A DNA stretch of 19,063 bases, from contig CADBJA010000019.1 in the NCBI GenBank assembly GCA_902794945.1, positions 1 through 19,063 of the forward strand, given 5' to 3'. Both the position numbers and the translations under genes were made by a program. Shown here in pieces: positions 2,354 through 18,479 of the stretch (position 1 is its first letter; the number at the start of each line of letters is the position of its first letter). This DNA is from Oscillospiraceae bacterium. GTDB lineage: Bacteria > Bacillota > Clostridia > Oscillospirales > Acutalibacteraceae. The notes under the pieces were generated by a model. That model was not told the origin of the DNA and ran no database searches. It saw only the letters and a program-made list of their open reading frames with translations.

Positions 2354-4015
2354 TTAAAAACTGAGATTTCTTAAAATCATACCGAGTCCGGATTTTACTT
2401 GCGTATTCTCACGAATGCCTTCCACATATTTTTTTCCCTTTTCGGCAGACACTTCATTGATAGCGGCATCTTTAATTAAGTCTTCACTCTTATGTTTTGC
2501 CTCAATAAGCATTGCCACTTCCGCAAATGTTTCATCATCACTTAAACCGCAAACGGTTTTCCCTTTTTTGGCTTTCGGATTGGTTAACAGTTCTGCAACC
2601 GGTCTGTTTTGAATGTTGGCAACAGCCATATCTTTTACCAAAGTAGAATCTTCATCCTTATACATAGCGGCACTATCTTTGGAAACATTCTCGGTAACAA
2701 GTTTATGGAACTGCTTTTCATCTTTCGCTTTGGCAATCTTTTCGACCGTTTTTAACGCTTTTTCTTTGGTAACGGAATCATTGACCTGCACATAGAAATA
2801 GCGGAAAGAAACGACTTCAAAGTTATCCGGATTTTCTTTATAAATCTTTTCTAACTGCTCTTTTGTGACATCTTTTAACATCACGCTCTTGTAATAAGAA
2901 TTGACATAAGCCGTTAATTCAAGGTATTCGGCAAAATCTTTTTCACTGATTTTCAAGCCATACATAGACTTCATATAATCTTCAAAAGACTGATTTGCCT
3001 GCTCGGCATAAGAATTTACATTTTTGATAGCATCCGTAACGGATTTTTCATCTTTCTCGGTCATTTCATAACCGGCTTTTTTACCCTCGTTGTAAATGCC
3101 GTAGTACAGTTTTAATGCATCTACGGTTTGGGATTTCAAGAAATCATCCCAAGTTTTATAATCTTCACTATTTTCATAGGTTTGTTTGGAAGGCTTTTCA
3201 TCAATATTAAAGCCGGAAGAAGTGTAATTTGCCGCATTCTCTATATAATAAACGGCTTTATATACATTCATCGGTACGGAGGTACCGTCCACCTTCACAA
3301 CGCTCTTATTGCCTGCAAAGAACAAAATGGCACACCAAATCGCAATCGCTAAAACCACACCCAAGCAGGCAAAGCCGACTTTTTTAAGCACCTTTTTCTT
3401 CTTTAAATGCTTTTGAATATCCTTTTCTTTATAAGCATCCAACACTTCGGTTTCAATGTGTATTTTTTCGCCGCACTGCGGGCAAACGATATTCTCATCA
3501 TCATCAATATCATCTGCCGAAAAATGCACAACCGCTTCACAAGCACCGCAATCGACAATGTAAGAGCCGCCTTTTTCATCTTCACTCCCATCATTTGATT
3601 TATCGACCAAATAATAATCGAGCGCCTCTTGATTAATTTCGATACTTTCATTACAATTCGGGCAAATGAGGTTACCCTCTTCATCTAAATCTTCTAACTC
3701 AAAATACACTTTTGTAGCGCAACTTTCACAATCAGCAGCATATTTTGCAAGCGTGATTTCTTTTTCAACTGCCTCTTCGTCGTTCACTTCATCACCCGGC
3801 GCATCGTTCACATCATTTAAAAAGGATTCTAATTCCTTTTCGCTTTCAACACCGTCAATCTCCGTATAAGTGTTTTCTTTCTTTTCGGATTCTGCTTCGG
3901 GTGTTGTTTCGGCAACAGTATCGGTTGCCTGCGTTTCATCGGATGCGGACACACTGTTTAAAGAAACTTCCGGTTCGAGTTCATTCTCGAGATTCTCTTT
4001 TTTATTTTCGTCCAT
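2354..4015 (-). CDS. Membrane protein with a cytoplasmic double zinc ribbon and an extracytoplasmic SurA_N-like chaperone domain and no parvulin domain.
   Basis: The N-terminal region is acidic. It carries two CxxC...CPxC zinc-ribbon motifs (CESCATKV...CPNCN and CGACEAVV...CPQCGEK). A TM helix follows (VGFACLGVVLAIAIWCAILFFAG), then an external domain similar to the neighbouring PrsA-like protein (VVKVDGTSVPMNVYKAVYYIENAANYT). An AAGGGG RBS sits 7 nt upstream. Confidence 0.6.
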   Translation of the reverse strand: MDENKKENLENELEPEVSLNSVSASDETQATDTVAETTPEAESEKKENTYTEIDGVESEKELESFLNDVNDAPGDEVNDEEAVEKEITLAKYAADCESCATKVYFELEDLDEEGNLICPNCNESIEINQEALDYYLVDKSNDGSEDEKGGSYIVDCGACEAVVHFSADDIDDDENIVCPQCGEKIHIETEVLDAYKEKDIQKHLKKKKVLKKVGFACLGVVLAIAIWCAILFFAGNKSVVKVDGTSVPMNVYKAVYYIENAANYTSSGFNIDEKPSKQTYENSEDYKTWDDFLKSQTVDALKLYYGIYNEGKKAGYEMTEKDEKSVTDAIKNVNSYAEQANQSFEDYMKSMYGLKISEKDFAEYLELTAYVNSYYKSVMLKDVTKEQLEKIYKENPDNFEVVSFRYFYVQVNDSVTKEKALKTVEKIAKAKDEKQFHKLVTENVSKDSAAMYKDEDSTLVKDMAVANIQNRPVAELLTNPKAKKGKTVCGLSDDETFAEVAMLIEAKHKSEDLIKDAAINEVSAEKGKKYVEGIRENTQVKSGLGMILRNLSF

Positions 4016-4095: not shown

Positions 4096-4191
4096 AAAAC
4101 AAAAATTAACAGTTCGGTAAAAACAAAAATTAACAGTTCGGTAAAAACAAAAATTAACAGTTCGGTAAAAACAAAAATTAACAGTTCGGTA
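4096..4191. repeat. Four perfect tandem copies of a 24-bp unit, aaaacaaaaattaacagttcggta.
   Basis: Copies occupy 4096-4119, 4120-4143, 4144-4167 and 4168-4191. Each contains ACAGTTCGG. Confidence 0.95.
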
Positions 4192-4198
4192 AAATTTA

Positions 4199-4282
4199 TA
4201 CCGGCGGCGCCGTGATACTTCGTCGGGGCGCTCTACGCTCACCGATCTCATAGTCCATCGGTCTCATAGTCCATCGGTCGCA
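4199..4282. repeat. Repeat element R1, homologous to R2 at 4757-4822. It contains an internal 16-bp tandem duplication (tcatagtccatcggtc, two copies).
   Basis: R1 reads accggcGgcgccgtgatActtcg...ctacgctc...catcggtcgc. R2 reads accggcAgcgccgtgatGcttcg...ctacgctcg...ccgtcggtcgc. Shared blocks appear in the same order. Confidence 0.5.
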
Positions 4283-4589
4283 ACAAAATTTTTATGCAAT
4301 TTTAATTACAGACTTATTTTTTAAAAATACAACAAGATATGCACATTTCAATGTTTCCTAATGAAATCGGGCTGTGCCCGATGAAATCCAAAATGCATAA
4401 TTTGGATGAAATCAAATCCGCCATCCGCCTTGGCGGATAGAAGAACCCGACCAACTTGCCAAATCAAAGATTTGGAGTTGGTGCCCGGAACCTTGGCGTT
4501 CGCGGCACCTTGTGCCGCTCGGCTGCATCGCTTGCGATTTCATCCGAGCAAAGCGAGGATTTCATCCACCTGTATAGGTGGATGAAATT

Positions 4590-4620
4590 AAAAAAGCAGT
4601 TCCGAAGAACTGCTGTTTTT
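4590..4620. terminator. Bidirectional terminator.
   Basis: An 8-bp stem (agcagttc pairing with gaactgct) with a cgaa loop spans 4595-4614. A6 precedes it and T5 follows it. Confidence 0.55.
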
Positions 4621-4660
4621 GGTAGCGGGAGCAGGACTCGAACCTGCGAGCCCGGGTTAT
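4620..4660 (-). pseudogene. 3' fragment of tRNA-fMet, an att-like duplicate.
   Basis: The first 30 nt (tggtagcgggagcaggactcgaacctgcga) are identical to the 3' end of the intact tRNA at 4856-4931, including the encoded CCA. The match continues through gggttat, then diverges. No 5' half is found. Confidence 0.6.
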
Positions 4661-4756
4661 CGCTTCGCGCCCTCAGAAATATGGTCGCACTGCTCGCTTG
4701 GAGCGCTTCGCATTTCTCCCTATTTCTTCACCTCACCATCACGGCTTCATCTGCCA

Positions 4757-4822
4757 CCGGCAGCGCCGTGATGCTTCGCCCCACCGAGCTACGCTCGTCG
4801 TCCTCATGAACCGTCGGTCGCA
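4757..4822. repeat. Repeat element R2, homologous to R1.
   Basis: See R1. It lies between the tRNA-fMet fragment and the intact tRNA-fMet terminator. Confidence 0.5.
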
Positions 4823-4825
4823 TAA

Positions 4826-4855: not shown

Positions 4856-4931
<76 letters not shown>

Positions 4932-12490: not shown

Positions 12491-14524
12491 TTAGTCAATT
12501 TTCTTTTTGAGCGTAAGAATATTTTTATCATCCTTGCGATCGTAAGCAACATCATCCATAATCTTTTTGGTCATAAAGATGCCAAGCCCGCCGATTTGCC
12601 TTTCATCTGCCGGCAATGTAATATCGGGGTCTTTTTTGGCAAGAGGGTTATACGCAACGCCGCTATCCTCAAAAATAAGGGTGAGCACATCGTTTTCAAA
12701 ATGTGCCTTCACATCGGCATACCCGCTCCCCGGCTGATATGCATAATTTGCGATATTGACAAATATTTCTTCTACAGCCAAAGCGATTTGCATTTGTACT
12801 TTGAGCGAAACCTGCTTTTGTTCAAGGTAAGCGGATACAAAATCCGTCACCTCATCCAACTTATCATTATTCGCTTCAATGTGAAGAGTTTTTTCCATTT
12901 CCTGTGCTCCGTAATACTCGAGGCAAAGCATGGTAATATCATCAAATTGCGGCGCTTCGCCAACAAAATCATCCACCGTTTGCTTCACATGTTCTAAAAT
13001 TTGTTTAGGGGGTTGCTCACGCACTTCGTGCAGGGCGCGCAACATCCGCTCACAACCGAACAAGGTATCATTTTTATCGGTTGCTTCGGGTACGCCGTCG
13101 GTATATAAGAACAGTTTATCCCCTTTTTGCAGTTGAATAACGGATTGCGTGTAATGCACGCCTTCCATCGCGCCCACAACCAAACCGTGCTTTTGAATAC
13201 AAAGGTTGAAAGTATCACCTTTTCTGTAAATCACGGGGTCATCGTGCCCGGCGTTTACGCAAGTGATTTTACCGGTAGACAGTTCCAAAATACCAAACCA
13301 AATGGTCACAAACATATCTGCAGAATTATTAGAGCAAATTCTGTCGTTAACAAACTCAATAATCTCAGCCGGTGTACCGCCTGTGGTGGTGCATTTGATT
13401 TTAATCAACATTTTTGTCACCATCATAAACAGTGCCGCCGGAATCCCTTTGCCGGATACATCTGCCATCACCAGCGCAATGTGGTCATCATCAACCGCAA
13501 AGAAATCGTAAAAATCACCGCCGACTTCTTTTGCCGGTGTCATCGAGGCATAAATATCAAATTCCGTACGCTCGGGGTAAGCCGGAAAATCGCTCGGCAC
13601 GGCGCCCGCCTGAATTTTTGCCGCTACATCAAGTTCGGTGTCGATGCGCTGCTTTTCACTCAAAGCCGCCGTCATATCATCAAAATACTTTAAAGTATCC
13701 AACTCCATTTGAGAGATGGAAGTTGCAAGCGTTTTAATCTCATTAATTTTGCTGATATTTTGAAGCATATCGGTGTTGCTGATTTCGTTTTCACGAGCAA
13801 ACCTGTCTGCCTCTTGAGAAATTTTGTGAATCGGGTTTATAAACTGGCGTCTTAAATAGTTAATTGCCATATAAGAAACCAAAATAACCGTTAATAATAC
13901 CGATAGTGTTACCTGGGTGATGTACGGGGCTCTGCCTTCGCTGAGCACCGTCATCGGGCGCTGCACGCACATCAGTGCCGTGACATCGCCTTTTGCATTA
14001 TTAATGGCAAGAATAGAAGTGATGTGCGGCGGTGCACCGTCCAAATCTTTGGTGCGCATCACTTTTTCTCTATCGGTCTTTTTTAAATAGACCTGCTCGT
14101 ATTTTTGCGCATATTCTTCGTTTGTGGTATTTCTTCTGTAGCCGATTTCCCAAGGGGTATAGCCGGTATCTTTATTCACCGAGTTAAATACGGATGTGAA
14201 ATGCTTATAATCTTTATCGGGTTTAATGACATAAATGATGGAGACATCCATTTTATCACACAGTGTATCCATCCACTGTTGGGACTGGTCGTGCTCTTCC
14301 ATAAACTGCCCGTTCAAATAAGCATCAATATGATCTCCGTTTACAAGCGTGGCTGCGGTTTGCGCAATACCGTAGGTGACCTCGTCATACTCTTTTTCAA
14401 GAGACTTTGAAAAAGAAATATAGCCGATAATGGTCACAATCCAACTGAAAACAACCAACAATATAATCAGCGAACTGATAATATTGAAAGATAAACTGTT
14501 TCGCAGTGATTTAATAAATCTCAT
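12491..14524 (-). CDS. Transmembrane sensor fused to a PP2C (SpoIIE/RsbU-type) phosphatase and an RsbW-like GHKL anti-sigma kinase domain.
   Basis: TM1 (IISSLIILLVVFSWIVTIIGYI) is followed by a roughly 155-aa external domain, then TM2 (VTLSVLLTVILVSYMAINYL) and a HAMP-like linker. The PP2C motifs are GGDFYDF, DVSGKG and YTDGV. The C-terminal domain is HATPase_c-like, with the N-box AVEEIFVNIANYAY and the G-box GGLGIFMTKKIMD. Confidence 0.8.
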   Translation of the reverse strand: MRFIKSLRNSLSFNIISSLIILLVVFSWIVTIIGYISFSKSLEKEYDEVTYGIAQTAATLVNGDHIDAYLNGQFMEEHDQSQQWMDTLCDKMDVSIIYVIKPDKDYKHFTSVFNSVNKDTGYTPWEIGYRRNTTNEEYAQKYEQVYLKKTDREKVMRTKDLDGAPPHITSILAINNAKGDVTALMCVQRPMTVLSEGRAPYITQVTLSVLLTVILVSYMAINYLRRQFINPIHKISQEADRFARENEISNTDMLQNISKINEIKTLATSISQMELDTLKYFDDMTAALSEKQRIDTELDVAAKIQAGAVPSDFPAYPERTEFDIYASMTPAKEVGGDFYDFFAVDDDHIALVMADVSGKGIPAALFMMVTKMLIKIKCTTTGGTPAEIIEFVNDRICSNNSADMFVTIWFGILELSTGKITCVNAGHDDPVIYRKGDTFNLCIQKHGLVVGAMEGVHYTQSVIQLQKGDKLFLYTDGVPEATDKNDTLFGCERMLRALHEVREQPPKQILEHVKQTVDDFVGEAPQFDDITMLCLEYYGAQEMEKTLHIEANNDKLDEVTDFVSAYLEQKQVSLKVQMQIALAVEEIFVNIANYAYQPGSGYADVKAHFENDVLTLIFEDSGVAYNPLAKKDPDITLPADERQIGGLGIFMTKKIMDDVAYDRKDDKNILTLKKKID

Positions 14525-14528
14525 ACCA

Positions 14529-14825
14529 TTAACCTATGTTAATAATGTCGGAAAAGCCGGTAATTTCGAACACTTCCATTACATCGGCGCAAGTGTTAAT
14601 CACCTTCATACTCCCCTGTTGATTCATTAATTTTTGTGCTTTTAAGAACACTCTTAAACCGGCAGAAGAAGTGTAGGGCATTTCAGCCAAATCAAACACC
14701 AATTCTTCAATACCGTCGGTATTTTCAAAGAGTGCTTCTTCTAACTGCGGGGCAGAGTTTGTATCGAGTCTGCCAACAATTTTAATTAAGAGTTTGCTGC
14801 CGTCCTGTTCCTTAATAATATCCAT
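14529..14825 (-). CDS. STAS-domain anti-sigma-factor antagonist (SpoIIAA/RsbV-like).
   Basis: The 98-aa product carries the conserved motif TSSAGLRVFL with a phosphorylatable Ser. It lies 4 nt upstream of the sensor gene. Confidence 0.85.
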   Translation of the reverse strand: MDIIKEQDGSKLLIKIVGRLDTNSAPQLEEALFENTDGIEELVFDLAEMPYTSSAGLRVFLKAQKLMNQQGSMKVINTCADVMEVFEITGFSDIINIG

Positions 14826-14837
14826 AATGTACCTCCA

Positions 14838-16007
14838 TTAATAATAAAGTGAATCCACTTTATCAATATTTGTTTTTAAATAGTTTTGGCAGTATTCTAC
14901 CAATTTTCTGCCCATTTCGGTCTCGAAACCGATTCTTTCGGCACTTCTGCGAAGCAAACGCGTGTAGCCGATTAAAGCGGCTTTGCGTTTTACATCGTTA
15001 ATAAAGGCTTCATCTTTATCGTCAAAATAATACTTTAAAGTTGCCTCCCAAAAACGCTCGGCATACTCATACTTAATCCCCAAAAAGCCGTGCACATTTT
15101 CTCTGTCCACACAACTGAAACCAAGGTAAGCAAGGAAAATCGCCGTAAATTCGAAAATCGGGTGACCTTGTGCGAGCGTATCCATATCAATAAGCAGGTT
15201 TTCACCGTTTTGCCTCATAATGTTTTTGACATGGTAATCGCCGTGAAGCATATTGTCGGAATCCGGAATTTCGCTCATCATTTTAAACAGTTTTTCGTAT
15301 GTAGCACTGTCTAAATACGGGCGGCAACGCTCTACCCAAGAGAGTGCCTCTTCCTTTTTATCCGGCAAGGTGCCTTTTTGTAAGAGAATAGCGTGTATGG
15401 TTTTGAGTATCTCTACACTTTCTTTAGCAAGTTGTTCGATGTTATCGGGGTCCTTATTGACCAGTTTTGCAAAACTCTCAGCCTGTAAGAGTTCAAACAC
15501 GGAGCCATATAAATCACCGACTTTAACCACATCATACGGAATGGCGGTCGGCACACCCATAACAAACGCTTTACGGGCAAGTTCACGCTCGTTGTGAATT
15601 TCATCTAACGAGTCGGGGTTTTTATACACTTTAATAACCGTGTCATCACCGATACGGTACACCAAACCGTTGGCGCCCTCACCGATGATTTCACAGCCCT
15701 CCACGCTCACTTCGCGATAGGCTTTGGTAATATCCATCATTTCGGTAAAGCCGGTCATATCAAAAATCTCATACACATCGCTGGATGCATTGATGATTTT
15801 GGTTGCGGGATTGGATTTTTTTAACCTCAAAACCACACGCAAGCCGGCACTGGAGATATATTCGAGTTTTTGCATATCAAGAACCAATGAATCGGTTCTT
15901 TCAAAGCCGATGGCGTTAATCTCTTTTTCAATTTCCGGTGCATTGCCGGAATCGATTCTACCCTCTAAATAAATGGTATAAGTTTGTTTTTCTTTTTTAA
16001 ACTCCAT
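14838..16007 (-). CDS. Fusion of an N-terminal STAS domain to a C-terminal protein-kinase-like (APH/CotS/choline-kinase fold) domain.
   Basis: The STAS part carries ISSAGLRVVL. The kinase-like part has a Gly-rich loop IGEGANGLVY, the lysine motif VIKVYK, a catalytic loop HGDYHVKN and a metal-binding LIDMD motif. Confidence 0.75.
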   Translation of the reverse strand: MEFKKEKQTYTIYLEGRIDSGNAPEIEKEINAIGFERTDSLVLDMQKLEYISSAGLRVVLRLKKSNPATKIINASSDVYEIFDMTGFTEMMDITKAYREVSVEGCEIIGEGANGLVYRIGDDTVIKVYKNPDSLDEIHNERELARKAFVMGVPTAIPYDVVKVGDLYGSVFELLQAESFAKLVNKDPDNIEQLAKESVEILKTIHAILLQKGTLPDKKEEALSWVERCRPYLDSATYEKLFKMMSEIPDSDNMLHGDYHVKNIMRQNGENLLIDMDTLAQGHPIFEFTAIFLAYLGFSCVDRENVHGFLGIKYEYAERFWEATLKYYFDDKDEAFINDVKRKAALIGYTRLLRRSAERIGFETEMGRKLVEYCQNYLKTNIDKVDSLYY

Positions 16008-16099
16008 TATTTTTCTCCATATAATAAAATATATGTAATTATAACATATATTTTATACAATTATCAATACATATTTGAAATTATAAAAAATAAAGCATA

Positions 16100-16440
16100 T
16101 GGCAACGCCGTAATATCATTGTGCGCAACACACATCGTTTGCCACAGGCAACATTGTTTTGTGTTCGCGGTTTTTGCTCACGCAAAAAAACAAAGTTGTG
16201 CCTTGCGGACACAAACGTAAAGACTCACTAATGAAATATTTGGCTCTGCCAAATATGAAATAACGGCAACTCCATTATGAAGTATTGTAGTTATTCACTA
16301 CAATATGAAGCAAAATAAATTCCTATATATGCGAAGCATACTTCATAGCGACTGCTATTTCATATTCCGCAGGAATATTTCACAAATTCCAAAGGAATTT
16401 ATTTCATTGAAAAAACCACTTCATACGAAGTGGTTTTTTC
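16100..16440. repeat. A hairpin array from the same family as 6600-7310.
   Basis: ATGAAAT / ACTTCAT / ATTTCAT motifs alternate with small palindromes: atatttggc...gccaaatat, atgcgaagcat, atattccgcaggaatat and aaattccaaaggaattt. The run atgcgaagcatacttcatagcga nearly repeats the sequence at 7150-7180. Confidence 0.5.
16411..16440. terminator. Bidirectional terminator abutting the tRNA-Cys fragment.
   Basis: The sequence is aaaaaacc ACTTC atacg AAGTGG tttttt, a hairpin with flanking A and T runs. Confidence 0.5.
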
Positions 16441-16497
16441 CGGAGGCAACACCCAACCGGGGAATCAGAGTTTTGCAGCCAAATTGACATCCCTTAC
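16441..16497 (-). pseudogene. Degenerate 3' copy of tRNA-Cys, an att-like scar.
   Basis: Its 3' end (ggaggcaacaccc) and the segment ggggaatcagagttttgcag are identical to the intact tRNA-Cys at 18347-18421. The T-loop is deleted and the 5' part has diverged. Confidence 0.6.
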
Positions 16498-16585
16498 CTA
16501 CGGCAAATTCTACGGTTTTCTACGACATAAGGTAATAATTTAAGTTTAATATCAACAAAGTTCTGCATTCCTCATAGTTATAAAA

Positions 16586-16612
16586 ATGTTCCCGAAAGTT
16601 CTTCGGGAACAT
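16586..16612. terminator. Terminator after the HEPN gene.
   Basis: An 11-bp stem (atgttcccgaa pairing with ttcgggaacat) has an agttc loop and flanking A and T runs. Confidence 0.65.
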
Positions 16613-16627
16613 TTTTAACTGTAATAA

Positions 16628-17023
16628 TTAAATATTATCATTTAAATACCGGTCAATAGCATTAACAACAGTTGCTGCATTTTCAAACGCCTCTTGCGCA
16701 TCAATCAACTCAAACTTTGCTGCAATGTCATAATCACTTTGCCCTCGTGCATCGACCAATCGACCAAGCATCTTTGAAAGAGAAGCATCAAATCTTCCGT
16801 TTTTAATGTAATGCTGTCTAAAATAGGCAATTACACCGGAATGCTTTTTAGAATCGTAGCCATCTAACAATTCTAATGCCTTGAGGGAATGAAACGCTGC
16901 ATAATATGAACGATTAATTGCGCCATTATAATCCCCCACTTCAATATAAATGGGAATAAACTTCAAGATTTCTTTCGCATTCGATAATTCTAATTGAGAG
17001 AGTTCACTCACACTATTATGCAA
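16628..17023 (-). CDS. HEPN-domain protein, the putative toxin partner of the upstream nucleotidyltransferase.
   Basis: It has the R-x6-H motif (NRSYYAAFH) and is about 130 aa. It overlaps the 3' end of the NTase gene by 8 nt. Confidence 0.8.
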   Translation of the reverse strand: MHNSVSELSQLELSNAKEILKFIPIYIEVGDYNGAINRSYYAAFHSLKALELLDGYDSKKHSGVIAYFRQHYIKNGRFDASLSKMLGRLVDARGQSDYDIAAKFELIDAQEAFENAATVVNAIDRYLNDNI

Positions 17024-17354
17024 CTTTAATACCCTCTCTTTCTACATTCTGAAGAAAAGGCATTACATCTCTGAACTTGTCAAAGGTCTCGGTATCATAT
17101 GCCAATATCGAAACCGTGATATCGTTTTCCAAGGATAAATCACTACCTAAATCTACCAACAAATAGCGATAATCTCTTAATTCATCACGAGAGCAATGAA
17201 TCAAAACCATAATATCAATATCGGATTCATCATCATAATCACCGCGCGCATAGGAGCCGTATAACTTTACAGCACACAACTTTTCGCCAAAATTATCTTT
17301 GGCAAAGTCACAAATCTTATCTAATATTTGCTTTAAGGTGTTTTGATTGCACAT
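17016..17354 (-). CDS. Minimal nucleotidyltransferase (MNT, Pol-beta superfamily), the antitoxin-type partner of the HEPN protein.
   Basis: It carries the GS...DxD motif in LYGSYARGDYDDESDIDIMV. The start is set at the ATG at 17354, preceded by GGAGG with a 7-nt spacer. The tracked ORF is 20 codons longer. Confidence 0.8.
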   Translation of the reverse strand: MCNQNTLKQILDKICDFAKDNFGEKLCAVKLYGSYARGDYDDESDIDIMVLIHCSRDELRDYRYLLVDLGSDLSLENDITVSILAYDTETFDKFRDVMPFLQNVEREGIKVA

Positions 17355-17386
17355 GATAACGCCTCCTTTCTTAAACTCTAATATTA

Positions 17387-17414
17387 ATATATACTTTTTT
17401 AGTTGGAAAATCAA
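17387..17414 (-). promoter_or_regulatory. Promoter of the NTase-HEPN pair.
   Basis: On the minus strand it reads TTGATT (17409-17414), about 17 nt, then TATATA. A second copy of the same 35-bp block lies at 17830-17857. Confidence 0.45.
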
Positions 17415-17437
17415 ATAAATTTATTCTTTAAAGAGAT

Positions 17438-17800
17438 TCATACTACCCTCCTGTAAATCTCTGCGCCTTGATTAATATTTGCAAGAATCGGATCAGTTGT
17501 CGGCTTTCCTTCACAAAAGTAAAGAATATCATAATCTTGCGCAAAATCACTTTCAAAAGAGAACAGCTGCCTTTGAAAATCCTTAAACTCTTTAGAACGG
17601 AGGTATTCACTTCGACTCTTTTTTCCGAATACGGCAATATCAATATCAGAACGGTCTGTGCATCTTTCTTCTAAAGCAGAACCGAATAACACAATGCGGT
17701 GAATGTTTGCACATTTCTTTGCCTGCTCTGCAATATTTAAAATGTACTTTTTCTTAATGTCTGCCACATAGTTATTACTTACTTTTACTAATCTGCACAT
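17438..17800 (-). CDS. Second nucleotidyltransferase-domain protein with no adjacent HEPN gene.
   Basis: It carries the motif LFGSALEERCTDRSDIDIAV. The start is set at the ATG at 17800, preceded by GAGGT with a 7-nt spacer. The tracked ORF begins at a TTG. Confidence 0.75.
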   Translation of the reverse strand: MCRLVKVSNNYVADIKKKYILNIAEQAKKCANIHRIVLFGSALEERCTDRSDIDIAVFGKKSRSEYLRSKEFKDFQRQLFSFESDFAQDYDILYFCEGKPTTDPILANINQGAEIYRRVV

Positions 17801-17829
17801 AGGTACTACCTCATAATAATTCAATAGTA

Positions 17830-17857
17830 TTATATACTGTTTCGATTAGAAAATCAA
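17830..17857 (-). promoter_or_regulatory. Promoter of the orphan NTase, a duplicate of 17387-17414.
   Basis: On the minus strand it reads TTGATT (17852-17857), 16 nt, then TATAAT (17830-17835). Confidence 0.45.
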
Positions 17858-18296
17858 ATAGTAGTAATCGCTATTTTACTTTTTAAGAACAACCCTCATA
17901 GAAACCTTGGATTTTGAGTAAAAATCAATTCGGAGTTCAGAGAACTCCGAACCTTACACTAAAAATTGGCGTAGGTATAAGAAATTTAAATTTTCTACTA
18001 TGAAAGAATATTCATTTACTACGACAGACAATTCCCAAAATCCGGGAAAGCGTTTTATGTAGAACGATTGTAACGACTAAATCATATTAATATTATATGT
18101 TTGCGCCGTTTTTATCAGTTCTAACATTAAAATCAGAAAAAAACTACGATAAAAGTTACAAATTTTGTAACTTTTTCAGTTTCGAAAAATCATCAAATTT
18201 CCTGTATTTACGCCAAATCTTTCTGTCGTTGTAAAATTGCCCTTTCATCGTAGTAATTTTACCAATCAGTATTTTTTCATTTACAAAATTTTCCAA

Positions 18297-18340
18297 AAAA
18301 AGACTTAAAAACCGCATAGATACGCGATTTTCAAGTCTAA
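18297..18340 (-). terminator. Terminator of the tRNA operon.
   Basis: On the minus strand there is a roughly 15-bp stem with two G:U pairs (agacttgaaaatcgcg...gcggtttttaagtct), followed by UUUUUUU. Confidence 0.45.
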
Positions 18341-18346
18341 TGTTTT

Positions 18347-18421
18347 TGGAGGCAACACCCGGATTTGAACCGGGGAATCAGAGTTTTGCAGACTCGTGCC
18401 TTACCCCTTGGCTATGTTGCC
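18347..18421 (-). tRNA. tRNA-Cys, anticodon GCA.
   Basis: The reverse complement is GGCAACATAGCCAAGGGGTAAGGCACGAGTCTGCAAAACTCTGATTCCCCGGTTCAAATCCGGGTGTTGCCTCCA. The anticodon loop is CTGCAAA. The discriminator is U73 and CCA is encoded. Confidence 0.9.
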
Positions 18422-18479
18422 GAATATTATATTTTTTGAAAAAAACGGGAAGTTAAACAATGATTAACTTCCCTGAAAA

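What the first reader, a model, noticed from the sequence alone, without database searches (positions are those of the whole stretch)
16441..18421. A roughly 1.9-kb islet at tRNA-Cys, bounded by a degenerate direct repeat of the tRNA 3' end and carrying NTase/HEPN toxin-antitoxin-type genes
A partial, rearranged copy of the tRNA-Cys 3' portion (16441-16497) lies 1.85 kb downstream of the intact tRNA-Cys (18347-18421) in the same orientation. This is the classic attL/attR signature left by tyrosine-integrase elements that insert into tRNA 3' ends. The interval holds only an NTase+HEPN overlapping pair and a second NTase. The second NTase has its own duplicated promoter and no HEPN partner. No integrase remains. 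This looks like the decayed remnant of an integrative element that has kept its addiction or defence modules. The orphan NTase may be a spare antitoxin, or the partner of a HEPN protein encoded elsewhere.
Basis: partly seen in the sequence, partly recalled or inferred. Interest (0 to 1): 0.6.

Follow-up and report, generated by a model that had tools for sequence, protein, structure and literature searches.

The report
tRNA-Cys islet carrying NTase/HEPN cassettes
A 1.9-kb stretch of accessory DNA with three small nucleotidyltransferase/HEPN (toxin-antitoxin-like) genes is inserted into the end of a tRNA-Cys gene of an uncultured rumen Clostridia bacterium and is bounded by a leftover copy of the tRNA's 3' half; it is real, but an ordinary kind of genomic islet at a hotspot whose cargo differs between strains and species.

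Summary
tRNA-Cys (18347-18421, minus strand) is the last gene of a Val-Asp-Phe-Gly-Cys tRNA operon. A direct copy of its 3' part lies at 16441-16478. In this strain the copy has a 7-nt T-loop deletion and CCA changed to CCG. In sister strains it is a perfect 45-nt repeat running from the anticodon loop to CCA. A related species (L045) has the empty site: tRNA-Cys is followed directly by the terminator and hairpin array that follow the copy here. The 1868 nt between the repeats hold an orphan NTase, an overlapping NTase+HEPN pair, two copies of one promoter, and a 460-nt non-coding spacer. No integrase or integrase remnant is present. The pair belongs to the PF05168/PF01909 "class II" HEPN/MNT kind, not the validated HepT/MntA type VII family. 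The orphan NTase lost its own, different HEPN partner, which survives in related genomes. The locus is a hotspot. Other strains and species carry other cargo (R-M-like genes, a four-helix-bundle gene, other NTase/HEPN pairs), some far more similar between species than the core genes are. One mosaic breakpoint falls inside the 45-nt repeat. No integrase-bearing version and no same-species empty site were found. It is a new member of a known kind, of modest interest.

The parts
18347..18421 (-). Intact tRNA-Cys(GCA), the last gene of the tRNA operon Val-Asp-Phe-Gly-Cys (18806 down to 18347). Its 3' 45 nt (18347-18391, anticodon loop to CCA) form the attL-side repeat.
   Evidence: ARAGORN; Rfam tRNA 61.2 bits; 100% identical to the tRNA-Cys of L012.
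18301..18338 (-). Terminator-like hairpin (17 pairs plus a T-run) directly after tRNA-Cys, on the islet side.
   Evidence: In strain L100 this stretch and the tRNA 3' half are a divergent patch.
17881..18300 (-). Non-coding spacer of the islet. It holds a second hairpin/terminator at 17927-17953, has no credible ORF and no integrase remnant, and folds unusually well (z = -4.57). Its role is unknown.
   Evidence: No homologue in any fetched locus of another species.
17829..17857 (-). Promoter copy 1 (TTGATT-17-TATAAT) of the orphan NTase cassette.
   Evidence: (D5).
17438..17800 (-). Orphan minimal nucleotidyltransferase (NTase_o, 120 aa; GS-X10-DID motif). Its cognate HEPN is missing here.
   Evidence: Pfam Polbeta 7.8e-10 and NTP_transf_2 1.4e-6. 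Orthologues in L011 and L090 (93% aa) and in L102 have an overlapping 136-aa HEPN partner.
17386..17414 (-). Promoter copy 2 (TTGATT-17-TATATT) of the NTase2-HEPN2 cassette.
   Evidence: The same promoter stands before the L012 NTase.
17016..17354 (-). NTase2 (112 aa; GS-X10-DID motif), the upstream gene of the overlapping pair.
   Evidence: Pfam NTP_transf_2 7e-9; PADLOC PDC-S09 1.1e-24; PDB 9xbd_E 2.6e-9; NCBIfam MntA 30 bits, below the cutoff of 60.
16628..17023 (-). HEPN2 (131 aa, TTG start overlapping the end of NTase2 by 8 nt). AF0298-like HEPN with H61 and R93-x3-D97-Y98.
   Evidence: Pfam HEPN PF05168 4.8e-16; PDB 2hsb 2.6e-8 and 9xbd_A 1e-6; family description in PMC3710099.
16581..16617 (-). 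Perfect 16-bp hairpin flanked by A/T runs; the likely terminator of the NTase2-HEPN2 operon.
   Evidence: I11.
16441..16478 (-). Displaced copy of the tRNA-Cys 3' part (attR-side repeat). In this strain it has a 7-nt T-loop deletion and CCA changed to CCG. In L008, L120, L121, L011, L012 and L090-L092 it is an intact 45-50 nt.
16409..16440 (-). Ancestral terminator of the tRNA operon (14-bp perfect stem), now stranded behind the copy. This is chromosomal flank, not islet.
   Evidence: I21. The same GAAAAAACC-hairpin-GGTTTTTTCAATGAA motif follows the intact tRNA-Cys of the empty-site locus L045.

Best explanation
The interval 16479-18346 is a small, non-autonomous genomic islet. It occupies the tRNA-Cys 3'-end integration site of an uncultured rumen Clostridia bacterium.

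Origin (inferred): an element carrying an attP that matched tRNA-Cys from the anticodon loop to CCA recombined with the gene. The functional tRNA was rebuilt with the element's 3' half. The original 3' half, together with the operon terminator, was pushed 1.9 kb downstream, where it is now decaying in this strain.

Cargo (shown by sequence): two promoter-led cassettes of the minimal-nucleotidyltransferase/HEPN kind. One is complete (NTase2 overlapping HEPN2). The other is reduced to its NTase, because its own HEPN was replaced by the second cassette.

Function (inferred from the family): the HEPN protein is a latent RNase-type toxin or effector held in check by its NTase. This could stabilise the islet or give abortive-infection-type defence.

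Turnover: the islet has no recombinase of its own. Its content is exchanged among strains and species by recombination that uses the tRNA gene and the 45-nt copy as anchors. Whether an integrase acting in trans or homologous recombination does this is not resolved.
For: 1. Repeat. 45 nt from the anticodon loop to CCA, in direct orientation, far beyond chance. This sublocation is a recognised attB form for tyrosine integrases. A regenerated tDNA plus a displaced fragment marks island ends (PMC4383910).

2. Empty site. In L045, tRNA Asp-Phe-Gly-Cys is followed directly by the terminator/hairpin-array motif and the STAS-APH gene, with 518 nt between tRNA-Cys and the gene and no tRNA-Cys fragment detected. 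The same motif follows the copy in the window.

3. The same site is filled in other species. L012 has an intact tRNA-Cys, 1883 nt carrying a 23S_rRNA_IVP gene and an NTase+HEPN pair, and a perfect 50-nt repeat. L011 has an NTase_o+HEPN_o pair and a 49-nt copy.

4. Horizontal exchange. L102 is 98.4% identical to the window in the core genes but carries L011-type cargo at 94.4% nt identity, while the core genes of L011 are only 68% identical. L091 combines the islet side of L090 (119/120) with the distal flank of L012 (113/118), so the switch lies inside the copy.

5. In strain L100, all 35 differences from the window lie in 18154-18431. Two of them are in the tRNA 3' half and none is in the 5' half. 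This is as expected if the 3' half and the adjacent islet end are one element-derived unit.

6. Cargo identity. Homologous NTase/HEPN pairs elsewhere ride on elements with a Tn916-type integrase+Xis+HicAB (L108) or a serine integrase (L103).

7. G+C content is 29-37% in the islet, against 38-48% in the neighbouring genes.
Against: No integrase was seen in this islet, in the complete L012 islet, or in any fetched variant. No integrase remnant is detectable. The 45-mer and a 28-mer of it are absent from the viral contig collection, and the islet has no match among phages or plasmids. The integrase step therefore rests on analogy.

No empty-site allele was found within the species. Every same-species contig that spans the site is filled, or carries other cargo.

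The 45-nt copy is identical in six lineages whose flanks are only about 50-78% identical. A purely neutral, ancient remnant would not show this, so something maintains or renews it: gene conversion, repeated recombination or selection.

Toxicity and NTase-mediated neutralisation have not been demonstrated for this class II family.
Confidence: 0.75

Rival explanations
1. The islet is a still-mobilisable, integrase-less element of the CIME type. The 45-nt repeats are functional attL/attR sites. An integrase encoded elsewhere in the genome, or on an incoming element, excises, integrates or swaps the cassettes in trans.
For: The copy is perfectly conserved (45/45) across six lineages while both flanks are diverged. 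A mosaic breakpoint maps inside the copy. Cargo is shared at 94% identity between species whose core genes are 68% identical. CIMEs are defined as elements that lost their integration genes but kept attL and attR (PMC5704250).
Against: No cognate integrase or attP-bearing element was found. In the window strain and its closest relatives (L002, L004, L093) the copy has lost 7 nt of the T-loop and the terminal A, so here the site is probably dead. A same-species allele (L102) lacks the copy altogether. Homologous recombination or gene conversion explains the same data.
Confidence: 0.2
2. After one ancient insertion, all later variation is ordinary homologous recombination and deletion at a hotspot. 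Incoming DNA from related species is patched in using the highly conserved tRNA operon on one side and the 45-nt copy, or the core genes, on the other. Gene conversion from the tRNA gene keeps the copy identical. No site-specific recombinase is involved any more.
For: The distal ends of the islets of the window, L090/L091 and L012 are recognisably homologous at about 70-77% identity, which suggests common descent rather than independent integrations. Cassette swaps have junctions at the shared promoter and at gene ends, not at att sites. L102, L005 and L006 have junctions at 16188, 16096 and 16083, outside the repeat. The L100 patch looks like a conversion tract.
Against: 45 nt is a short anchor for RecA-dependent exchange. 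The L091 breakpoint falls exactly in it. This rival overlaps with the best explanation: it differs only in how present-day turnover occurs.
Confidence: 0.45
3. The copy is the remnant of a local tandem duplication of the whole tRNA-Cys gene. Its 5' half has decayed, and the accessory genes landed between the two copies by unrelated events.
For: There are weak scattered matches between the 25 nt upstream of the copy and the D-arm region of the tRNA. L012 keeps 5 more identical nucleotides.
Against: In all lineages identity drops abruptly at the anticodon loop or stem, from 45/45 to background. No acceptor 5' strand (GGCAACA) is present upstream of any copy. The terminator that follows the copy is the one that follows the single tRNA-Cys in L045. 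A second tRNA in the window, tRNA-Met, shows the same anticodon-loop-to-CCA fragment pattern.
Confidence: 0.04
4. The tRNA-like segment is chance similarity or part of another structured RNA.
For: It lies next to an Rfam Gut-1 RNA hit (16335-16409).
Against: 24+13 exact nucleotides here and 45/45 in sister strains. 0 of 200 shuffles give a second 22-mer match. Rfam finds no family over 16441-16520 even at E up to 1. The Gut-1 hit is separated from the segment by a terminator.
Confidence: 0.01

Closest known systems
Genomic islands integrated in tRNA genes (Islander-type tDNA islands; anticodon-loop-to-CCA attB class)
   Same: An intact tRNA gene stands at one end, and a displaced 3' fragment of the same tRNA in direct orientation at the other. 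The repeat runs from the anticodon loop to CCA. The target is the last gene of a tRNA operon. The cargo is accessory. An empty site exists in a relative.
   Different: No tyrosine integrase gene, so the islet fails Islander's own filter. It is very small (1.9 kb). In this strain the fragment is damaged.
CIME (cis-mobilizable element: a decayed ICE/IME that kept attL and attR)
   Same: It is flanked by att-like repeats, has no integration or transfer genes, and sits at the 3' end of a tRNA gene. The site is shared with alternative elements.
   Different: No related ICE or IME with a matching integrase was seen. Mobilisation in cis is untested. Derivation from a conjugative element is unsupported.
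Class II HEPN/MNT modules (PF05168 HEPN + PF01909 NTase; AF0298/UPF0332-like HEPN-T; PDB 2hsb, 9xbd)
   Same: The Pfam pair, the gene order NTase then HEPN with overlap, GS-X10-DXD in the NTase, R kept with H replaced in the HEPN motif plus an upstream conserved H, and a conserved Tyr next to it.
   Different: The class itself had no validated toxin/antitoxin activity in the 2020 survey. Sequence identity to the solved examples is low.
Type VII toxin-antitoxin HepT/MntA (class I; DUF86 PF01934 + PF01909)
   Same: A two-gene NTase-HEPN operon, the NTase catalytic motif, and a small, mobile, islet-borne setting. The likely logic is that the NTase neutralises the HEPN.
   Different: The HEPN is PF05168, not DUF86, and has no RX4HXY motif. 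The NCBIfam MntA equivalog score is 30 bits against a cutoff of 60.
Defence islands / integration hotspots with variable anti-phage cargo (for example tycheposon-type tRNA-linked islands in Prochlorococcus; this comparison is from my own knowledge)
   Same: One chromosomal site next to a tRNA holds different small defence-type modules in different strains: NTase/HEPN, R-M-like methyltransferase, four-helix-bundle protein. Partial tRNA repeats are present.
   Different: No dedicated recombinase or transposase was seen. There are only a handful of alleles, all from fragmented metagenome contigs.

Membership tests
tDNA-integrated genomic island (Islander definition) | Intact tRNA gene at one end and a cognate 3' fragment in direct orientation at the other | tested here: met
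   tRNA-Cys 18347-18421 and fragment 16441-16478 on the same strand; 45/45 in sister strains.
tDNA-integrated genomic island (Islander definition) | Tyrosine integrase gene inside the island | tested here: not met
   Only three ORFs, all NTase or HEPN. No Pfam integrase hit in the six frames of the spacer. None in the L012 islet either.
tDNA-integrated genomic island (Islander definition) | Uninterrupted target with the same flank in a relative (empty site) | tested here: met
   L045 has tRNA-Cys followed directly by the conserved terminator/hairpin motif and the STAS-APH gene. This was found only in another species (62% aa identity in the flanking gene), not within the species.
CIME (cis-mobilizable element) | attL and attR retained, integration and transfer genes lost | tested here: met
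   Repeats present, no recombinase or transfer genes. In the window strain attR is damaged (7-nt deletion, CCG).
CIME (cis-mobilizable element) | Excision or transfer driven by a related element's integrase | not testable with these tools
   Needs read-level junction detection or an experiment. No cognate integrase was found.
Type VII TA HepT/MntA (class I) | MNT antitoxin with GSX10DXD | tested here: met
   NTase2 has GS-YARGDYDDES-DID and NTase_o has GS-ALEERCTDRS-DID (sequences; motif from PMC7641770).
Type VII TA HepT/MntA (class I) | HEPN toxin of DUF86/PF01934 (or PF08780) with RX4HXY | tested here: not met
   HEPN2 hits PF05168 only. The motif region reads R93-GQS-D97-Y98, with no H.
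Type VII TA HepT/MntA (class I) | NCBIfam MntA equivalog score above the cutoff | tested here: not met
   30.1 and 30.6 bits against a cutoff of 60.
Type VII TA HepT/MntA (class I) | HEPN toxicity neutralised by AMPylation | not testable with these tools
   Requires expression and mass-spectrometry experiments.
Class II HEPN/MNT (PF05168 + PF01909) | Adjacent PF01909 NTase and PF05168 HEPN genes, with the NTase carrying GSX10DXD | tested here: met
   Definition in PMC7641770.
AF0298-like HEPN-T family | R of the Rx4-6H motif kept, H absent, and a second conserved H N-terminal to it | tested here: met
   phmmer to 2hsb at 2.6e-8. The alignment pairs KKHSGVI with SKTHRGTI and DARGQSDY with DLREESDY. 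Family description in PMC3710099.

The most novel reading that the evidence does not exclude
The 45-nt tRNA-Cys half-copy is not debris. It is a maintained recombination site that, together with the tRNA gene, brackets an exchangeable slot. Promoter-equipped NTase/HEPN and other defence cassettes are swapped into this slot between rumen Clostridia species by an integrase acting in trans, giving a minimal, integrase-less, tRNA-anchored cassette system. The second, 195-nt, insert with the same anticodon-loop-to-CCA repeat at tRNA-Met in this window would be another such slot.
Probability: 0.15. Interest if true: 0.55.

Novelty: new member of a known kind. Interest (0 to 1): 0.3.

Why it matters
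The islet adds a clean, very small example of a tRNA-anchored accessory islet in uncultured rumen Clostridia. It has an identifiable empty site, alternative cargo alleles, and a recombination breakpoint mapped to the att-like repeat.

Three points could be useful:
- It offers a natural series of class II (PF05168) HEPN/MNT cassettes whose NTase N-terminal half and promoter are conserved while the C-terminal half and the HEPN vary. This is a ready-made specificity panel for testing whether this unvalidated class behaves as a toxin-antitoxin or defence module.
- It shows how an 'orphan antitoxin' can arise by cassette replacement.
- The unusual conservation of the 45-nt fragment raises the question of whether displaced tRNA fragments stay active as recombination sites.

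None of this overturns current understanding.

Tried and rejected
- Empty-site or filled junction pattern (copy end plus the window-type terminator) in JGI metagenome contigs: 0 hits.
- A second metagenome scan with a 38-mer of the repeat gave only 3 short contigs. All were displaced copies and none was an intact tRNA-Cys junction.
- The 45-mer and a 28-mer in viral contigs: 0 hits.
- The whole islet against phages and plasmids in distant mode: no match.
- The 50-mer against phages and plasmids: only unrelated tRNA-Cys genes.
- Search for an integrase remnant in the 460-nt spacer by six-frame Pfam: nothing.
- Attempt to extend the L011/L102-type island upstream to its tRNA-proximal end. The exact methyltransferase protein is on only one other contig, and it breaks at the same place. 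The truncated first ORF has no other homologue in the database. Whether that larger island carries an integrase is therefore unknown.
- Exact-protein look-ups of NTase_o, HEPN2, STAS-APH and the STAS protein gave only filled or alternative alleles, and no same-species empty site.
- L005 and L006 diverge from the window at 16096 and 16083, but their novel ends (87 and 27 nt) match nothing fetched.
- I first read RSYYAAFH in HEPN2 as an Rx6H catalytic motif. I rejected this after the 2hsb alignment and PMC3710099 placed the motif at R93...D97-Y98.
- Rfam at a permissive threshold finds nothing in the islet.
Full report
THE REPEAT

The window carries a tRNA operon on the minus strand: Val, Asp, Phe, Gly, Cys (18806 down to 18347). 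tRNA-Cys(GCA) at 18347-18421 is its last gene. About 1.9 kb further downstream on the same strand, at 16441-16478, lies a copy of the tRNA's 3' part. It has 24 exact nucleotides (16455-16478 = 18368-18391) and 13 more (16442-16454 = 18348-18360). The two blocks are separated by a 7-nt deletion that removes the T-loop, and CCA is changed to CCG. A 22-mer from the repeat occurs twice in the window, against none in 200 shuffles.

Contigs from sister strains (about 98% identical: L008, L120, L121; L007 starts inside the repeat) show the undamaged form. It is 45 nt, from C31 in the anticodon loop to the terminal A, and is identical to the tRNA. The deletion is therefore recent and confined to the window's sub-lineage (window, L002, L004, L093).

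WHAT LIES BETWEEN THE REPEATS (16479-18346, 1868 nt)

Reading along the minus strand from the tRNA:
- a 17-pair terminator-like hairpin (18338-18301);
- about 420 nt without a credible ORF, ending in a second hairpin (17953-17927);
- a promoter, TTGATT-17-TATAAT;
- a 120-aa nucleotidyltransferase (NTase_o, 17800-17438);
- a second copy of the same promoter (38 nt, 82% identical);
- a 112-aa nucleotidyltransferase (NTase2, 17354-17016), overlapping by 8 nt a 131-aa HEPN protein with a TTG start (HEPN2, 17023-16628);
- a perfect 16-bp hairpin.

No integrase gene is present, and nothing in the six frames of the spacer resembles one. G+C content is 29-37%, against 38-48% in the neighbouring genes.

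IS IT AN INSERTION?

The source is an uncultured rumen Clostridia lineage. The best genome-collection match to the flanking STAS-APH gene is only 73% identical at the protein level. Of 80 related loci, four bear on the site.

L045 (62% aa identity) has tRNA Asp-Phe-Gly-Cys. Directly after the CCA comes GAAAAAACC-hairpin-GGTTTTTTTCAATGAAG, then an array of short hairpins, then the STAS-APH gene 518 nt after the tRNA. The window has the same GAAAAAACC-hairpin-GGTTTTTTCAATGAAA motif and hairpin array, but behind the copy rather than behind the tRNA. The copy and its flank are therefore the ancestral 3' end and terminator of the tRNA operon, and the 1.9 kb is an insertion.

L012 (67%) has an identical tRNA-Cys, 1883 nt of different content, and a perfect 50-nt repeat. 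L011 (71%) has a 49-nt copy preceded by an NTase/HEPN pair.

Identity that starts in the anticodon loop and runs to CCA is one of the known attB forms used by tyrosine integrases (also Williams 2002, from my own knowledge). A regenerated tDNA plus a displaced fragment is the accepted signature of island ends.

THE LOCUS IS A HOTSPOT, NOT A FOSSIL

1. L102 is the same species as the window (98.4% over 16188-12510) but carries L011-type cargo: two unannotated ORFs (a 531-aa product cut by the contig end, and one of 300 aa), then NTase_o and its own HEPN. This cargo is 94.4% identical in nucleotides to L011, although the core genes of L011 are only 68% identical. It joins the chromosome at 16188 with no copy. 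In L011 the gene upstream of these ORFs matches a type II methyltransferase model (PADLOC 4e-87).

2. L092 combines L011-like copy-proximal sequence (98%) with a window-like NTase2-HEPN2 module (87.5%) that follows the 3' end of NTase_o.

3. L091 has the islet side of L090 (119/120) and the distal flank of L012 (113/118). All three share the identical copy, so the switch lies within those 45 nt.

4. Across six lineages the copy is 45/45 identical, while 120 nt on either side are about 50-78% identical. A neutral remnant would not behave this way. Gene conversion from the tRNA gene, repeated recombination at the site, or selection must be acting.

5. In strain L100 all 35 differences from the window fall in 18154-18431. 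They include two in the 3' half of the tRNA and none in its 5' half or in 17193-18153. This is as expected if the tRNA 3' half and the adjoining islet end travel together.

What I could not find is an integrase-bearing version at this site, an attP-carrying element, or an empty site within the species.

THE GENES

Both NTases have the GS-X10-DXD motif of minimal nucleotidyltransferases. They score only 30 bits against the NCBIfam MntA equivalog, whose cutoff is 60. NTase2 matches the PADLOC defence-candidate family PDC-S09 (1e-24) and the NTase chain of PDB 9xbd, an NTase-HEPN complex.

HEPN2 is PF05168. Its best solved relative is AF0298 (2hsb, 2.6e-8). As described for that HEPN-T family, the R of the Rx4-6H motif is kept (R93), the H is replaced (D97-Y98), and a second conserved H lies upstream (H61).

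Yao et al. class PF05168/PF01909 pairs as 'class II' HEPN/MNT. These lack RX4HXY and were not yet validated as TA systems, unlike the type VII HepT/MntA pairs. The pair therefore works like a type VII module on paper, but it is not a member of that family.

The orphan NTase is explained. Its orthologues in L011 and L090 (93% aa) and in L102 are each followed by an overlapping 136-aa HEPN of a different subfamily (weak PF05168, unrelated to HEPN2). In the window and in L092 that HEPN has been replaced by the NTase2-HEPN2 cassette.

NTase2 and the L012 NTase share their promoter and N-terminal half (79% nt identity) but differ in the C-terminal half, and their HEPNs are only 32% identical. This suggests that partner specificity sits in the variable halves. 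Homologous pairs elsewhere ride on elements with a Tn916-type integrase, Xis and HicAB, or with a serine integrase. That fits a role as mobile addiction or defence cargo.

VERDICT

The insertion into the tRNA-Cys 3' end and the lack of an integrase are shown. The integrase-mediated origin and the TA function are inferred. The picture of a static decayed remnant should be replaced by a small, non-autonomous islet in a recombination hotspot with exchangeable NTase/HEPN and other defence-type cargo. This is a new member of a known kind, and interest is modest (0.3).

The most novel reading still open is that the conserved 45-nt fragment is a maintained recombination site for cassette exchange driven in trans. 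I put this at about 0.15.

Noticed in passing
window 4620-4661 (minus strand), with tRNA-Met at 4856-4931: A second displaced tRNA fragment. A copy of about 41 nt of the tRNA-Met 3' part (anticodon loop to CCA, 93% identical) lies only about 195 nt downstream of the intact gene. It is followed by its own terminator and a hairpin array. L011 and L012 have tRNA-Met without the extra copy. This is the same pattern as at tRNA-Cys, with an insert too small to encode anything.
   Followed up: partly
window 16230-16409 (minus strand); also 4370-4590; L045 480-720; L090 1-180; L012 340-540: The Rfam Gut-1 RNA hit (16335-16409, 56 bits, cutoff 50) is part of a longer array of short hairpins separated by a recurring word (TGAAAT here, ATGAAGAC in L045, GATTACAT in L012). 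Such arrays sit just downstream of tRNA terminators or tRNA fragments in several loci. Part of the array in L090 matches window 4413-4527 at 93-96%. It looks like a REP-like repeat family rather than a single-copy sRNA.
   Followed up: partly
window 17920-18300 (minus strand): The non-coding spacer of the islet folds much better than shuffles (-92.2 against -67.9 kcal/mol, z = -4.57), with long-range inverted repeats (17956-17987 with 18195-18226; 18137-18155 with 18242-18260). There is no Rfam match and no homologue in other species. The function is unexplained.
   Followed up: partly
L102 1-3364 and L011 707-4780: An alternative cargo at the same locus. In L011 it is a type II methyltransferase-like gene (PADLOC 4e-87), then two ORFs of 548 and 300 aa with no family match, then NTase_o with its own HEPN. 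L102, whose contig starts inside the larger ORF, shares this stretch at 94% nt identity although the core genes of the two genomes are 68% identical. The tRNA-proximal end was not recovered: contigs L011 and L117 both break at the same point.
   Followed up: partly
L005 1-87 and L006 1-27 (junctions at window 16096 and 16083): Two further same-species contigs diverge from the window just upstream of the STAS-APH promoter into sequence that matches nothing fetched. They are either more alleles of the hotspot or assembly chimeras.
   Followed up: partly
L100 (window 18154-18431): One strain is identical to the window over 17193-18153 but differs at 35 positions in the next 280 nt. These include two substitutions in the tRNA-Cys 3' half (positions 42 and 56). 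This is a sharply bounded recombination or conversion patch at the attL side.
   Followed up: partly
window 4096-4191: Four perfect tandem copies of a 24-nt unit (AAAACAAAAATTAACAGTTCGGTA) lie just upstream of the 553-aa ORF at 2354-4015 (minus strand), which has no Pfam match.
   Followed up: no
window 4200-4268 and 4756-4824: A 69-nt direct repeat (74% identical). One copy lies inside the 195-nt insert at tRNA-Met. It is GC-rich and full of hairpins.
   Followed up: no
window 12491-16007 (minus strand): Next to the islet lies a conserved partner-switching-type operon: a STAS-APH kinase-like fusion (389 aa), a STAS protein (98 aa) and a SpoIIE phosphatase/HATPase_c_2 protein (677 aa). The gene family is widespread in rumen Clostridia MAGs (575 relatives found).
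   Followed up: no
L012 2527-6399 and L091 139-540: Accessory genes also occur distal to the tRNA-Cys copy in other lineages: a 1290-aa BspA-type leucine-rich-repeat protein in L012, and an ORF in L091 whose sequence looks like a 23S-rRNA-IVP-type four-helix-bundle protein (judged by eye, not scanned). The variable region therefore extends beyond the repeat.
   Followed up: no
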